Shown here: piece by piece, positions 18,001-24,000 of the stretch | How positions within the stretch are numbered: the first letter of the stretch is position 1 | Layout: every line of letters starts with the position of its first letter | Assembly (NCBI RefSeq): GCF_056746865.1 | Contig: NZ_JBWKMP010000005.1 | Direction: 5' to 3' (one strand) | DNA: 64,000 nucleotides | DNA from: a plasmid | Program-made: the position numbers

Positions 18001-21000
18001 GGCTCGTGTTCCGGTAATTACAGGTATCCATTTCAGTACAAGGGCTATTGAAAATGTGAATAAACTGGAACAACAGAAGGATTATGTCTATTTCTCAACA
18101 CATGAAGGCCTGAATGCTGAAATAAAAGATTTCAGCTCTCTCAAGGATGCTATTGAGTGGGGCCGGGTTGAATGCGAGCTACATGATCTCAATAAGCGCG
18201 ATACTGTCATTTATCGCGTCGAGTCTGAACATATTTCTCAGGGGATTGACGCTGTAATGAAAAATGCTGAACGCGTGGAGCGTCATGAAATTGAGAAAGC
18301 ACAGGGACGGGATTGCACGCCGGAAGACGGCAAGATTCTTGAGGCAATTGATCGCTTTGAGGACAAGTTCAGAGGGGAAGGACTGAAGTTCGAAAGGGAG
18401 AAGGCCGAATCCGATTTGCTTAATCACGGATTCACTCGTGAAATGGCAGAAGATGCTCTTGGAAAACAATTTGTCCAGGCCAGAGAAGAACATCTGGAAT
18501 TGCAGCAACAGCGTGACAATTCACAGGACATGCACTAATTAAGAAAAAAGCCCGGTTTTCGGGCTTTTTAAGAGCTGAATTTACAATCCAAGTGCAACAA
18601 AAAAAGAAGTACTCATCAACTAGAATATAATTTTGTTTCCACACAAAAACCATTTCCAAATGATGAGTACTTCCTACCGACATCTTACAATAAACGAGCG
18701 AGAAAAGATAATGATTTTACTCGCACAGGGCAAAAAACAAGCAGAAATTGCCAAAGCACTGGGACGTAGCTCCAGCACCATTTCTCGCGAGCTGAAACGA
18801 CACGCTCTAGAAAGCTACAGTGCAACGAACGCACAAAACAGCTATTTGAAGCATCGTCAAAATAGCAAAGCACAGCGCAAATTAGAGCAGCCTGAATATT
18901 TCAATTTGGTGCAAGAAAAGTTTCTGACAGAAAACTGGTCGCCCGAACAAATCAGCGCACGATTAAAATTGGAAAAATCTGAATTATCCATTAGTTATTC
19001 AACCATTTATCGTGGTATTTATTCAGGGTTGTTTGATATAGGCGAACGCAAAGCCAGTCGCAAACTGCGCCACAAAGGCAAAACACGGCATACAAAAATC
19101 ATCATGAAAAACGTGGCAAAATTCAGATATCCAACCATTTGAACGACCGTCCCATTTCGGCGCAAAATCGCAGTCGCTTTGGACATTGGGAAGCCGATAC
19201 CGTACTGGGTAAAGCGGGTGGAGCTTGTTTGCTGACGCTGACGGAACGCAAAAGTCGTTTTGAGTTGGTGAAGAAAATTCCTGCCAAAAAAGCCGAAGCA
19301 GTCCAAAAAGCCATGATTGAATTGCTGGATTCACATATATTGCGGTCAATTACGCCAGACCGTGGTAAAGAATTTGCCCAACATCGTTTGGTAACAGAAG
19401 CACTGGGTGTAGAATTTTACTTCCCCGAGCCGCATCAACCGTGGACACGGGGAACGAATGAAAATACAAATGGGTTACTTCGTGAATACTTTCCGAAGCA
19501 CCAAGACATCAATCAGTGGAGCGAAGTTGATATTCAACAGGTGATCAATAAACTGAATTTACGACCACGTAAATGTTTAGGTTGGAAAACACCTTATGAA
19601 GTTTACTTCAAAAAATCGTTGCACTTGGTTTGACAATTCAAGATACAAATTATAAATACTCTCAAGTGTATATTCAGTATGGGATTGCGCAATGATTGCC
19701 TAATAAAATTTCTGAAATATTTCTGTATCGCATAATTTTTTATATCAGATAAATTGTACTGGATTTCTTAAAAAATTGCAGTATAATTGCCGCAATTATC
19801 CCACCGTTTATTTTTTGAATAGTTTCTCATGATGCAGCATACTTCTGTGTGGTACCGACGCTCGGTCAGTCCGTTTGTTCTTGTGGCGAGTGTTGCCGTT
19901 TTCTTGACCGCGACCGCCAATCTTACCTTTTTTGATAAAATCAGCCAAACCTATCCCATCGCGGACAATCTCGGCTTTGTGCTGACGATCGCTGTCGTGC
20001 TCTTTGGCGCGATGCTACTGATCACCACGCTGTTATCATCGTATCGCTATGTGCTAAAGCCTGTGTTGATTTTGCTATTAATCATGGGCGCGGTGACCAG
20101 TTATTTTACTGACACTTATGGCACGGTCTATGATACGACCATGCTCCAAAATGCCCTACAGACCGACCAAGCCGAGACCAAGGATCTATTAAACGCAGCG
20201 TTTATCATGCGTATCATTGGTTTGGGTGTGCTACCAAGTTTGCTTGTGGCTTTTGTTAAGGTGGATTATCCGACTTGGGGCAAGGGTTTGATGCGCCGAT
20301 TGGGCTTGATCGTGGCAAGTCTTGCGCTGATTTTACTGCCTGTGGTGGCGTTCAGCAGTCATTATGCCAGTTTCTTTCGCGTGCATAAGCCGCTGCGTAG
20401 CTATGTCAATCCGATCATGCCAATCTACTCGGTGGGTAAGCTTGCCAGTATTGAGTATAAAAAAGCCAGTGCGCCAAAAGATACCATTTATCACGCCAAA
20501 GACGCGGTACAAGCAACCAAGCCTGATATGCGTAAGCCACGCCTAGTGGTGTTCGTCGTCGGTGAGACGGCACGCGCCGATCATGTCAGCTTCAATGGCT
20601 ATGAGCGCGATACTTTCCCACAGCTTGCCAAGATCGATGGCGTGACCAATTTTAGCAATGTCACATCGTGCGGCACATCGACGGCGTATTCTGTGCCGTG
20701 TATGTTCAGCTATCTGGGCGCGGATGAGTATGATGTCGATACCGCCAAATACCAAGAAAATGTGCTGGATACGCTGGATCGCTTGGGCGTAAGTATCTTG
20801 TGGCGTGATAATAATTCGGACTCAAAAGGCGTGATGGATAAGCTGCCAAAAGCGCAATTTGCCGATTATAAATCCGCGACCAACAACGCCATCTGCAACA
20901 CCAATCCTTATAACGAATGCCGCGATGTCGGTATGCTCGTTGGCTTAGATGACTTTGTCGCTGCCAATAACGGCAAAGATATGCTGATCATGCTGCACCA

Positions 21001-24000
21001 AATGGGCAATCACGGGCCTGCGTATTTTAAGCGATATGATGAAAAGTTTGCCAAATTCACGCCAGTGTGTGAAGGTAATGAGCTTGCCAAGTGCGAACAT
21101 CAGTCCTTGATCAATGCTTATGACAATGCCTTGCTTGCCACCGATGATTTCATCGCTCAAAGTATCCAGTGGCTGCAGACGCACAGCAATGCCTATGATG
21201 TCTCAATGCTGTATGTCAGCGATCATGGCGAAAGTCTGGGTGAGAACGGTGTCTATCTACATGGTATGCCAAATGCCTTTGCACCAAAAGAACAGCGCAG
21301 TGTGCCTGCATTTTTCTGGACGGATAAGCAAACTGGCATCACGCCAATGGCAACCGATACCGTCCTGACCCATGACGCGATCACGCCGACATTATTAAAG
21401 CTGTTTGATGTCACCGCGGACAAAGTCAAAGACCGCACCGCATTCATCCGCTGATTTCTCCCTGTATTTTTTCCAAACCCACCGCACACTCCATTCGTAT
21501 TATGGGCGGTGGGGTGGGGTTTGTTATGCCGTATTTATCAAATAAACGCCTACTTGCTGAGATGAGTATCGCTCTTGTCATGGCGATCGTTGCCACGCTG
21601 ACCCTTGAGCACAGTCAGATTGATCTGATGGTCGCTGATTGGTTTTATCTGGGTATGGGGCATTGGATGGTTGCCAAGCAAGCTTTTTTGCCAGATTTGC
21701 TACTGTATTCTGGACTAAAAAAGCTGCTGATGGCGATGCTGATCTACTTGCTGGTTGCGACCATTTGCCGTGCTTATCATGAGAAAAAGGGCAATGCTAT
21801 CACTGCCAAGTGGCTTGTCCCAGTGACAAAATTTCGCGTGCGTGAGCTTGCGTATCTGGTGCTGACTTTGATCCTAGTGCCGACAGTTGTCGCGTCATTG
21901 AAGGCATATACTCATGTGGTCTGCCCTGTGCATTTGACGATTTTTGATGGTACGCTGCCGTATTTGCCGATGCTTGATAGTATGCGTAACACCATTCCTG
22001 ATAAGTGCTTTCCTGCGGCGCATGCCAGTAGCGGATTTGCGCTGTTTGCCTTTGCGTTTGCGCCAAGTTTGCGCCGCCGTCGTGGTGCGATCATCATCGT
22101 GGTGATGGCATTGGGCTGGGCGATGGGCTGCTATAAGATGATTATTGGCGATCATTTTTTGAGCCATACGGTGGTGTCGATGATGCTTGCGTGGGCGATG
22201 TCGGCAGGGCTTGCGTGGGTGTTTTTTAAGAAGGGTGAACAAGTTCAAGGAAAAAAAATCAACCCCAAACAGAAATAACAGCTACAAAAATGGACAGTAA
22301 TAATGCAATAAAAGTAATGTTGAGCCATATGTTGGACGAGTCTTTTAAGACTAATGAGGCTGTTAATGCCATTGTAATGAAACTAATGATAATAATGGCT
22401 GCAAATAAATATTGTACAATGTTTTTTATTGTACTTGGTTGCTCCCCAATTCTTTCTCTGTAATTTGCATCAACATTAGATATCCATTGAAGTAATAGAG
22501 CAATAAAACAGCCTACTCCGCAAACGGTGAATTGCACAGACGTCGGGTTTGAATCAAACAACGAGATCGCTAAGTTATATAAGTATACCGCGCCTGAAAT
22601 CACCCCGACAACTAAAATAGAGATGAGTATAATCCGAAGAACTAATGTATTGCTTTCCTTTAAGGAATATATTAAAGCCGCTTTTTCGTATTCTTTCATG
22701 ATTTAATCCAGTCTATAAGTATAAGAACCAACAAAACTGTCCAGGATTCATTTTCTGTGAGCATATGAAATCCCATCCAGAGTGATGATACTGGCAGAAA
22801 CACGCCCACAGCCGGAATTATTAGTCTGGCGGAGAATATCCTTATCAGGAGTATCAATAGTGATAAGAACAGAAAAAGAGTGATCATGTGGAAAAACATT
22901 CACATCACCTATAACACTATTAAGATAGCCTGCCAGATATCCATTTCAGACAGGCTATATACAGGGTTCAATTCATTCTATGAAAGGTGTATAGGGATTG
23001 CTGATGTTTGTGTCGATCAAAAATCTAATATTAATAGATGAGAACTAATATACATATTTCCAGACGGATGGGGGGATTTTATCGTAGAGTTTATTCATTG
23101 TGAGTTCTGCAAGCCTGTGATCGGCGGCGGCATTAAACGACTCAAGCTCAGAAGGAGGGAGGCTGTTTTGGTTTTTTTCAATAATCTTTTCAAGTGTGTC
23201 GAGTGTTGAGCAACGTCTTAACTGAAAGAGCCAGTCTTGTTTTGTTTTCATTGTACAATTCCTGAAGAACATCCTTGTCCTATAGTAGCTACAACGATGT
23301 TTGATTTCTACTGCTGGATTTATTTCTTACTTTTTTGTGTAAACTCAAATCCCAGTTTCCCGGTTGCTTTGTCAACCAGTTTTACTTTTGCTGAAAATTC
23401 TTTGTTTGTTTTTTGACTAATGAAACCTTTCAATTCACTTGTAACTCCTTTTGTTATTAACGTTTCAATTTGTTTATCGGTTAATGATTTGCCGCAGAAA
23501 TCTTTCCATATCTTAAATTCACATCCTGTACAGGAATAGCTTTTTGGCCTGATAACAATCTGTTTACCACAGGAAGGACAAGGAGAGGACAGGCGTTGTG
23601 ACTGACCAGACGGCGCGCTGGGGGAAACTTTTATTTCAGCACTGTTCGCATTACTGATCATCGGTATCAGATCATTGTACAGTTCGTCAACGAACTGTTC
23701 GATGGTCATTTCTCCGTTTTCAATGAGTGTCTGTTTTTCCGCCCATAATGCCGTCATATCTGGATTAACAGCTATATCCGGCAGAGCATCAATAAGCGCA
23801 TACCCGGTATCTGTCGGAATAAGTTTTCCTTTTTCCAGGGTGATATAGTTCCGTTTTTTCAGTGTTTCCAATATGGAAGCCCGCGTAGCTGGCGTACCAA
23901 TACCGCCATGTTCGTCTTTTTTATCCCGATCTTTATCCTTCAGTAACTTTTTAATCACTGGATCAGTGACAAAATCTGCGACACGAACAAGCGCGGCAAG

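What the first reader, a model, noticed from the sequence alone, without database searches (positions are those of the whole stretch)
18576..22278. ISApl1-mcr-1-pap2 colistin-resistance cassette inserted just after the relaxase terminator
A 541-aa MCR-1 phosphoethanolamine transferase gene and the PAP2 phosphatase gene follow a single upstream ISApl1; no second ISApl1 was seen downstream of pap2. This is the single-ended arrangement reported for IncI2 mcr-1 plasmids. ISApl1 begins 7 bp after the relaxase terminator hairpin. The resistance gene is clinically important, though the structure itself is known.
Basis: partly seen in the sequence, partly recalled or inferred. Interest (0 to 1): 0.65.

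Follow-up and report, generated by a model that had tools for sequence, protein, structure and literature searches.

The report
Known ISApl1-mcr-1-pap2 colistin-resistance cassette
This is the well-documented colistin-resistance cassette (one ISApl1 copy, mcr-1.1 and pap2) at its usual site next to the relaxase gene of an IncI2-type plasmid, and the only unusual point is a one-base deletion that breaks the ISApl1 transposase gene.

Summary
Comparison with insertion-free IncI2 plasmids puts the insert at 18574-22249 (3,676 bp), flanked by a 2-bp GA duplication (18572-73 and 22250-51). It holds ISApl1 (18574-19642), mcr-1 (19829-21454) and pap2 (21526-22278). The mcr-1 gene is identical in nucleotides to mcr-1.1 and in protein to PDB 9nww, with all catalytic residues present.

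The region matches more than 300 plasmid records at 99.9% identity or better, including pHNSHP45. An IncI2 plasmid with the complete two-ended transposon Tn6330 at the same GA site (CP133929) turns into the window's 3' junction, base for base, when 1,072 bp between two TT dinucleotides are removed. So this is a decay product of Tn6330, as Snesrud et al. (2018) described for this very site. It is not a one-ended transposition.

The deletion removed the pap2 stop codon, so the ORF runs 29 nt into the backbone. ISApl1 is 1,069 bp rather than 1,070: an A6 run is A5 (19094-19098), which splits the transposase into a DNA-binding fragment and a catalytic fragment. This is the only 1-bp indel in about 56 kb against the closest relative, and whether it is a mutation or a sequencing error cannot be decided here.

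Verdict: already known, low novelty.

The parts
14225..18538 (+). nikB-type relaxase gene (1437 aa; RefSeq name 'LPD7 domain-containing protein'), the left neighbour of the insertion
   Evidence: ORF. Annotated as relaxase or LPD7 protein in matching IncI2 plasmids. Snesrud 2018 (PMC5821093) calls it nikB.
18545..18569 (.). Symmetric hairpin AAAAAGCCCG-GTTTT-CGGGCTTTTT. In the uninterrupted plasmid it is the presumed two-way terminator between nikB and the convergent 146-aa gene.
   Evidence: Sequence; terminator scan. In the empty site (L003, L004) it lies a few bases from the stop codon of the minus-strand gene. Terminator function is inferred.
18572..18573 (.). Left copy of the 2-bp target-site duplication GA
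   Evidence: Empty-site plasmids L003 and L004 read ...CTTTTTAAGAAAAAAAATC... The left and right flank matches overlap by exactly GA.
18574..19642 (+). ISApl1 (IS30 family), 1,069 bp instead of 1,070. The imperfect terminal inverted repeats are 18576-18598 and 19618-19640.
   Evidence: Boundaries from the empty site and from the 1,070-bp copies in L007 and L008. Inverted repeat I3. One copy only in the window.
18660..19142 (+). 5' fragment of the ISApl1 transposase gene: 146 native residues (helix-turn-helix DNA-binding part) plus 14 out-of-frame residues, then a stop
   Evidence: Translation. It matches NCBIfam IS30 transposase profile positions 1-106 of 267.
19094..19098 (+). A5 run where all IncI2 relatives have A6. 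This 1-bp deletion frameshifts the transposase after codon 146.
   Evidence: Alignment with L001, L002, L005 and L008. Only 6 of 408 ISApl1-bearing PLSDB records have A5, none of them IncI2. No RefSeq E. coli IncI2 record has it.
19139..19633 (+). 3' fragment of the transposase gene in the -1 frame, holding the DDE catalytic core. It has no ATG start of its own.
   Evidence: It matches NCBIfam IS30 profile positions 121-267 of 267, E 1.7e-60. Inserting one A restores the 324-aa protein.
19643..19644 (.). AT dinucleotide at the inside end of ISApl1, the ancestral duplication from the capture of mcr-1
   Evidence: Sequence. Interpretation from Snesrud 2018 (PMC5821093).
19829..21454 (+). mcr-1.1, phosphoethanolamine-lipid A transferase, 541 aa, intact
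   Evidence: No nucleotide difference from L001, whose gene is called mcr-1.1 at 100% by AMRFinderPlus. Identical over 541 aa to PDB 9nww_B. NCBIfam NF000465 scores 1302.7 bits against a cut-off of 1100. E246, T285, H395, D465, H466 and H478 are present.
21526..22278 (+). pap2 (PAP2-family lipid phosphatase), 250 aa. The native 240 aa are followed by 10 residues (QGKKINPKQK), because the deletion removed the native TAA stop.
   Evidence: NCBIfam PAP2_near_MCR1 covers residues 1-237, 547 bits against a cut-off of 475. In intact Tn6330 the gene ends ...GTT TAA (L007 and L008).
22244..22249 (.). Deletion joint TT (22244-45) plus CAAG (22246-49), the last four bases of the lost downstream ISApl1 right inverted repeat
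   Evidence: Removing 1,072 bp between the two TT dinucleotides of L008 reproduces the window sequence exactly.
22250..22251 (.). Right copy of the target-site duplication GA
   Evidence: L008 has the same GA on both sides of its full Tn6330.
22259..22699 (-). Backbone gene for a 146-aa hypothetical membrane protein (WP_000666084.1), the right neighbour. Its 3' end overlaps the extended pap2 ORF by 20 nt.
   Evidence: ORF; annotation.

Best explanation
The region is a decay product of the composite transposon Tn6330 (ISApl1-mcr-1-pap2-ISApl1) on an IncI2-type conjugative plasmid. Tn6330 inserted at a GA dinucleotide between the nikB terminator hairpin and the stop codon of the convergent gene, duplicating GA. 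The downstream ISApl1 was then lost in a 1,072-bp deletion between two TT microhomologies. That deletion left the last four bases (CAAG) of its right inverted repeat and removed the pap2 stop codon. The result is the single-ended structure of the pHNSHP45 type.

Without an intact second right inverted repeat, mcr-1 can no longer transpose. It spreads with the conjugative plasmid instead. mcr-1.1 is intact and should add phosphoethanolamine to lipid A and confer colistin resistance.

In this copy the remaining ISApl1 also carries a 1-bp deletion that separates the DNA-binding part of the transposase from the DDE catalytic part. If that deletion is real, the IS cannot move on its own. It also cannot be excised by the transposase-dependent abortive-transposition route unless another ISApl1 in the cell supplies transposase.

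Shown here: the anatomy, the duplication, the deletion joint, the allele identity and the frameshift in the sequence as given. Inferred: the order of events, the resistance phenotype, and the consequences and reality of the frameshift.
For: - More than 300 plasmids match the 4.4-kb region at 99.9-100%, including pHNSHP45.
- Empty-site IncI2 plasmids define the insert as 18574-22249 with a GA duplication.
- Twelve plasmids have an ISApl1 right end abutting the same right flank. One of them, CP133929 (IncI2), has the full Tn6330 with GA on both sides, and deleting 1,072 bp between its TT dinucleotides reproduces the window junction. Only three SNPs and the A-run indel remain across the whole insert.
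- The canonical pap2 end ...GTTTAATCG is replaced by ...GTTCAAG, which is the IS right-end terminus.
- Snesrud et al. 2018 (PMC5821093) describe this GA site next to nikB, the CAAG variant, the TT joint and deletions of 1,064-1,074 bp.
- mcr-1 is identical to mcr-1.1 and to PDB 9nww, with catalytic residues present.
- The frameshift is seen.
- IS30 excision falls about 1000-fold when the transposase is ablated, as summarised in bioRxiv 10.1101/2023.06.07.543989.
Against: - Nothing contradicts the Tn6330-decay reading.
- The frameshift may be a sequencing or polishing error. It sits in a homopolymer inside a repeated element. At least one of the six database records with the same A5 (LC620534) has 7 gaps in 1,070 bp of ISApl1 and is plainly error-ridden.
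- No phenotype was measured.
- The replicon gene is outside the window.
Confidence: 0.93

Rival explanations
1. One-ended transposition. The single upstream ISApl1 mobilised mcr-1-pap2 by using an imperfect pseudo right inverted repeat in the last ~26 bp of pap2, and the GA duplication was made by that event (hypothesis of Gao et al., as cited in Snesrud 2018).
For: A 2-bp duplication flanks the unit. The end of the unit shares TTCAAG with the ISApl1 right end.
Against: - The end matches the true right inverted repeat at only 12 of 26 positions, and the six terminal matches are exactly the part explained by the deletion joint.
- In intact Tn6330 the pap2 end is GTTTAATCG, not GTTCAAG, so the terminal bases here come from a lost IS copy.
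- A full Tn6330 sits at the identical site with the identical GA in sister IncI2 plasmids.
- Snesrud 2018 reports variable 3' ends among near-identical IncI2 plasmids, and cites an experiment that failed to detect transposition of such single-ended units.
Confidence: 0.04
2. The ISApl1 frameshift is an assembly artefact: a residual homopolymer error in a repeated element that short-read polishing did not correct. The IS is in fact intact, as in pHNSHP45.
For: - The change is a 1-bp loss in an A6 run.
- All six PLSDB records with the same A5 are records with two ISApl1 matches.
- One of them has 7 gaps per 1,070 bp in ISApl1 and another has 2.
- No IncI2 record in PLSDB or RefSeq E. coli shares the variant.
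Against: It is the only 1-bp indel in about 56 kb of alignment to the closest relative. That includes 27 kb that are otherwise identical apart from one SNP and two 18-bp repeat-unit differences, so the assembly is not generally error-prone.
Confidence: 0.5
3. The A5 allele is a real, regulated arrangement. A -1 ribosomal slip on A_AAA_A (19094-19098) would restore exactly the wild-type transposase at a low level, as in the OrfA/OrfAB system of the IS3 family.
For: A -1 shift of the lysine codon on the A-run regenerates the native reading ...T K N H H... (derived).
Against: - IS30-family elements are not known to use frameshifting (own knowledge).
- 402 of 408 ISApl1-bearing records have the single uninterrupted ORF.
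- No stimulatory structure was looked for.
- A run of five A is a weak slippery site.
Confidence: 0.02

Closest known systems
pHNSHP45 (KP347127), the first described mcr-1 plasmid, and the pHNSHP45-type single-ended ISApl1-mcr-1-pap2 structure on IncI2 plasmids
   Same: Same backbone site (GA next to nikB), same order and orientation, same deletion joint ...GTTCAAG|GA, and the same mcr-1.1 allele. Identity is 99.9% over 4.4 kb.
   Different: The window has A5 rather than A6 in the transposase gene, which frameshifts it. It has C rather than T at 19793 and A rather than G at 19819, both upstream of mcr-1. It has A8 rather than A7 in the backbone run at 22251-58, which changes where the extended pap2 ORF stops.
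Tn6330 (ISApl1-mcr-1-pap2-ISApl1), for example in IncI2 plasmid pEco_M22546_62 (CP133929) at the same site
   Same: Identical left junction, identical GA duplication, and the same mcr-1-pap2 segment with three SNPs.
   Different: The window lacks the downstream ISApl1 and the last 6 bp (TAATCG) of the 2,609-bp segment, and keeps only CAAG of the downstream right inverted repeat. It therefore lacks the second end needed for transposition.
ISApl1 of Actinobacillus pleuropneumoniae (IS30 family, 1,070 bp)
   Same: Same ends, and the same sequence apart from one base.
   Different: It is 1,069 bp long, and the transposase reading frame is broken between the helix-turn-helix region and the DDE core.
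p2017.06.05CC_4 (AP027794), an IncI2 mcr-1 plasmid from Vietnam, the closest whole-backbone relative found
   Same: Window 1-27184 is identical apart from one SNP, two 18-bp repeat units in nikB and the A-run indel.
   Different: AP027794 carries an extra ISApl1 and an IS3-family element that the window lacks. The two differ in shufflon arrangement, and they diverge (91-96% identity) over window 56.8-64 kb.

Membership tests
Single-ended Tn6330 derivative (ISApl1-mcr-1-pap2, pHNSHP45 type) | One ISApl1 directly upstream of mcr-1, in the same orientation, abutting the conserved AT inside-end dinucleotide | tested here: met
   ISApl1 at 18574-19642 is followed by AT at 19643-44, identical to L007 and L008.
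Single-ended Tn6330 derivative (ISApl1-mcr-1-pap2, pHNSHP45 type) | The ~2,609-bp mcr-1-pap2 segment at more than 99% identity | tested here: met
   2,603 of the 2,609 bp are retained, with three SNPs against L008.
Single-ended Tn6330 derivative (ISApl1-mcr-1-pap2, pHNSHP45 type) | A 2-bp target-site duplication, verified against an empty site | tested here: met
   GA at 18572-73 and 22250-51. Empty sites in L003 and L004.
Single-ended Tn6330 derivative (ISApl1-mcr-1-pap2, pHNSHP45 type) | A 3' end explained by a deletion of about 1,070 bp of the downstream ISApl1 at a 1-4 bp microhomology, leaving a remnant of the right inverted repeat | tested here: met
   A 1,072-bp in-silico deletion at TT in L008 reproduces the window exactly. 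CAAG is the remnant. The range in Snesrud 2018 is 1,064-1,074 bp.
Single-ended Tn6330 derivative (ISApl1-mcr-1-pap2, pHNSHP45 type) | No second ISApl1 downstream | tested here: met
   A sensitive local BLAST of the IS against the whole 64-kb window finds one copy only.
MCR-1.1 phosphoethanolamine-lipid A transferase | Full-length 541-aa protein identical to the reference allele | tested here: met
   Nucleotide-identical to the mcr-1.1 gene of L001. Identical to PDB 9nww_B residues 37-577. NF000465 scores 1302.7 bits against a cut-off of 1100.
MCR-1.1 phosphoethanolamine-lipid A transferase | Catalytic nucleophile T285 and zinc ligands E246, D465, H466, plus H395 and H478 (residue list from own knowledge of the MCR-1 structures) | tested here: met
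   All are present at those positions, and the six cysteines of the catalytic domain are also present.
MCR-1.1 phosphoethanolamine-lipid A transferase | Confers colistin resistance | not testable with these tools
   Needs the MIC of a transformant or transconjugant.
ISApl1 (IS30 family), functional copy | 1,070-bp element with the ISApl1 terminal inverted repeats | tested here: inconclusive
   The inverted repeats are present and identical to the reference copies. The length is 1,069 bp because of the A-run deletion.
ISApl1 (IS30 family), functional copy | A single uninterrupted transposase ORF (324 aa as annotated in RefSeq WP_012478345.1) joining the HTH domains to the DDE core | tested here: not met
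   The ORF is split at codon 146. The fragments match IS30 profile positions 1-106 and 121-267 separately. Whether this reflects the real molecule cannot be tested here.
IncI2 plasmid | IncI2 replicon (repA) | tested here: not met
   The repA region of AP027794 (positions 1-3475) has no counterpart in the window. The window appears to be cut from a record longer than 64 kb, so absence from the window is not absence from the plasmid.
IncI2 plasmid | IncI2 backbone: nikB MOBP relaxase, VirB-type T4SS, type IV pilus with shufflon | tested here: met
   Window 1-56379 aligns at 99.4-100% to AP027794. The matching plasmids are typed IncI2 / MOBP / MPF_T by PLSDB.

The most novel reading that the evidence does not exclude
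The A6-to-A5 frameshift is a real mutation and marks a further, point-mutational step in the 'demise' of Tn6330. The last ISApl1 is inactivated rather than deleted. Excision is reported to depend on transposase, so this would freeze the single-ended structure. It would also leave a 160-aa helix-turn-helix fragment that could bind ISApl1 ends in trans and dampen transposition of other ISApl1 copies in the cell.
Probability: 0.15. Interest if true: 0.3.

Novelty: already known. Interest (0 to 1): 0.12.

Why it matters
mcr-1 is the main transferable determinant of resistance to colistin, a last-resort antibiotic, so recognising it matters for surveillance. The structure, its insertion site, its origin from Tn6330 and its immobilisation by loss of ISApl1 were worked out in 2016-2018, and hundreds of near-identical plasmids are on record. 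This window adds no new biology beyond one more example. The frameshifted transposase would be a minor addition to the picture of how the transposon decays, but only if it is real.

Tried and rejected
- I looked for the exact truncated transposase product in the large gene-position index, using three possible starts (160, 159 and 169 aa). None was on record, so I found no independent assembly with the same frameshift in an IncI2 context.
- I searched PLSDB and RefSeq E. coli for a record identical to the window including the A5. There is none: all IncI2 hits span one extra base.
- I tested whether the assembly is generally prone to homopolymer errors. It is not, with a single 1-bp indel in about 56 kb. 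That does not settle whether this one is an error, because IS copies are the hardest places to polish.
- I examined three of the six database records that share A5. They sit on unrelated backbones (IncN, IncHI1B, IncI-gamma/K1), and at least one is an error-ridden assembly. They cannot serve as evidence for a recurrent real mutation.
- I rejected one-ended transposition through a pseudo right inverted repeat.
- The sigma-70 consensus scan did not pick up a promoter immediately upstream of mcr-1. From memory, the published promoter is TGGATT followed by TATAAT, near 19761-19787. Its -35 element is too weak for the scan's threshold. I did not check this against the literature.
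Full report
**What is there.** ORF listing and direct reading of window 18300-22700 show five features on the + strand:
- The end of a 1,437-aa relaxase gene, with its stop at 18536-18538.
- A symmetric hairpin, AAAAAGCCCGGTTTTCGGGCTTTTT, at 18545-18569.
- An IS with imperfect terminal inverted repeats at 18576-18598 and 19618-19640.
- A 541-aa ORF at 19829-21454.
- A PAP2-family ORF ending at 22278.

A convergent 146-aa backbone gene on the minus strand (22259-22699) follows. A local BLAST of the IS against the whole window finds no second copy.

**How common it is.** The 4.4-kb stretch matches 1,225 plasmid records in PLSDB, and 307 of them cover at least 80% of it. 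The best matches are 99.9-100% identical IncI2 plasmids of E. coli, Salmonella and Shigella. They include pHNSHP45 (KP347127), the plasmid on which mcr-1 was first described. In RefSeq complete E. coli genomes, 150 genomes carry a match covering at least 80% of a 7.5-kb query around it.

**Exact boundaries.** I joined the left and right flanks into one query and recovered 185 records in which the two flanks are contiguous, that is, the site is empty. Two of these, CP091638 and CP042888 (both typed IncI2), read ...GGGCTTTTTAAGAAAAAAAATCAACC....
- The window matches this sequence from the left through 18573 and from the right back to 22250, and the two matches overlap by GA.
- The inserted DNA is therefore 18574-22249 (3,676 bp), flanked by a 2-bp GA duplication at 18572-73 and 22250-51.
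- ISApl1 starts at GCTGAATTT (18574) and ends at ...AATTCAAG (19642). This agrees with the 1,070-bp copies delimited in two other plasmids.

**Origin of the single-ended structure.** A query made of the ISApl1 right end joined to the right flank found 12 plasmids in which an ISApl1 right inverted repeat abuts this same flank. One of them, CP133929 (IncI2, Argentina), has the complete Tn6330 at the same site. Its layout is nikB hairpin, AAGA, ISApl1 (1,070 bp), a 2,609-bp mcr-1-pap2 segment, ISApl1 (1,070 bp), then GA and the backbone.
- In that plasmid, and in an IncN plasmid with Tn6330, the pap2 end reads ...GGGTGAACAAGTTTAATCG followed by the left inverted repeat of the second IS.
- In the window it reads ...GGGTGAACAAGTTCAAG followed by GA.
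- Removing 1,072 bp from CP133929, between the TT of GTTTAA and the TT of ...ACAATTCAAG, reproduces the window's junction base for base.
- After that step the whole insert differs only at three SNPs and one A-run indel.

This is the decay pathway that Snesrud, McGann and Chandler (mBio 2018, PMC5821093) described for this site. They report the GA duplication next to nikB, a TT deletion joint, the CAAG variant, and deletions of 1,064-1,074 bp. The alternative is one-ended transposition using a pseudo right inverted repeat in pap2. The end matches the true repeat at only 12 of 26 positions, and the terminal matching bases are exactly the ones supplied by the deletion joint. I reject that alternative.

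**Consequence for pap2.** The deletion removed the native TAA stop (GTT TAA). The ORF now continues through CAAG, the GA duplication and the backbone A8 run, and stops at 22276-22278. This adds QGKKINPKQK to the native 240-aa protein. The NCBIfam model PAP2_near_MCR1 (237 positions) aligns to residues 1-237 of the product that starts at 21526. pHNSHP45 has A7 instead of A8 in the backbone run, so its fused ORF ends elsewhere.

**The resistance gene.**
- The mcr-1 ORF has no nucleotide difference from AP026790, whose gene AMRFinderPlus calls mcr-1.1 at 100%.
- Its product is identical over all 541 residues to the full-length MCR-1 chain in PDB entry 9nww.
- It scores 1302.7 bits against the NCBIfam MCR-1 model, whose cut-off is 1100.
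- E246, T285, H395, D465, H466, H478 and the six cysteines of the periplasmic domain are present. The residue list comes from my own knowledge of the published structures.
The phenotype itself cannot be tested here.

- The IS is 1,069 bp long. Compared with AP026790, pHNSHP45, AP027794 and CP133929, the run CATAC-AAAAAA-TCATC is AAAAA here, at 19094-19098.
- The reading frame that starts at 18660 changes after codon 146 and stops at 19140-19142. The rest of the gene, including the GHWEAD motif of the DDE core, lies in the -1 frame as far as 19633.
- The two pieces match positions 1-106 and 121-267 of the IS30 transposase profile. Inserting one A restores the 324-aa RefSeq protein.

**Is the frameshift real?**
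- For a real mutation: across about 56 kb of alignment to the closest backbone relative (AP027794), this is the only 1-bp indel. Over the first 27 kb the only other differences are one SNP and two 18-bp repeat units in nikB.
- For an artefact:
  - It is a homopolymer change inside an element that is usually multi-copy in the host, which is where polishing works worst.
  - Only 6 of 408 ISApl1-bearing PLSDB records share it, all of them on unrelated backbones with two ISApl1 matches.
  - Of the three I examined, one has 7 gaps in 1,070 bp of ISApl1.
  - No IncI2 record in PLSDB or RefSeq E. coli has the variant.
  - The truncated product is not on record in the gene-position index.
- I put the odds at about even. 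Only the reads can decide.

**If the frameshift is real.** The cassette would be immobilised twice over, with no second IS end and no transposase. IS30 excision is reported to fall about 1000-fold without transposase (summarised in bioRxiv 10.1101/2023.06.07.543989). The remaining IS would therefore also resist the deletion that produces the IS-free pSLy1-type structures, unless another copy supplies transposase. The 160-aa helix-turn-helix fragment might bind IS ends. A -1 slip on A_AAA_A would restore the native protein. Both of these last ideas are speculation.

**Context.** The window aligns to AP027794 from that record's position 3476 to its end. It therefore lacks the repA region and seems to be cut from a record a few kilobases longer than 64 kb. 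'IncI2' thus rests on the backbone, not on the replicon gene. The backbone comprises the nikB relaxase, a VirB-type T4SS, and type IV pilus genes with a shufflon. All matching plasmids are typed IncI2 / MOBP / MPF_T.

**Verdict.** The finding is correct and the structure is already known in detail. Its importance is clinical and epidemiological rather than a matter of discovery. The corrected coordinates, the pap2 fusion and the frameshifted ISApl1 are the only additions.

Noticed in passing
window 16650-16874: There is an 18-bp tandem repeat (12.5 copies, encoding EQATEQ-type repeats) inside the nikB relaxase gene. Copy number differs between otherwise identical plasmids: the window lacks two 18-bp units that AP027794 has, and the empty-site plasmids have relaxase genes of 3,753-3,840 nt against 4,314 nt here.
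   Followed up: partly
window 19793, 19810, 19819: Three SNPs lie in the untranslated region just upstream of the mcr-1 start codon. The window has C19793 and A19819 where pHNSHP45 has T and G. It has A19810 and A19819 where CP133929 has G and G. Position 19819 lies 10 nt before the ATG, near where a ribosome-binding site would be, so these could affect expression level.
   Followed up: no
window about 1225-3442 and 5939-8145: Two copies (98.6% identical) of an IS200/IS605 tnpA plus TnpB (InsQ) unit sit in the backbone, as in AP027794.
   Followed up: no
window 30419-32621: Segments align to AP027794 in alternating orientation. This is the shufflon next to pilV, in a different arrangement from the relative.
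   Followed up: no
window 22251-22258: The backbone A8 run immediately after the insertion is A7 in pHNSHP45. Because the pap2 ORF now reads through it, the C-terminal tail and stop of the fused PAP2 protein differ between sister plasmids.
   Followed up: partly
window 56400-64000: The last ~7.5 kb diverge from AP027794: 91-96% identity with gaps, and 56380-56812 and 58943-60018 are unaligned. The rest of the backbone is 99.4-100% identical, which suggests a mosaic or recombinant segment.
   Followed up: no
window 26235-28193 (minus strand): The PcfJ-domain gene is intact here, whereas in AP027794 an IS3-family element interrupts it at the position corresponding to about 27180. AP027794 also has an extra ISApl1 at the position corresponding to window 8965.
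   Followed up: partly
window start and end: The IncI2 repA region (AP027794 positions 1-3475) is absent from the window, so the window is probably a 64-kb cut of a slightly longer circular record.
   Followed up: yes
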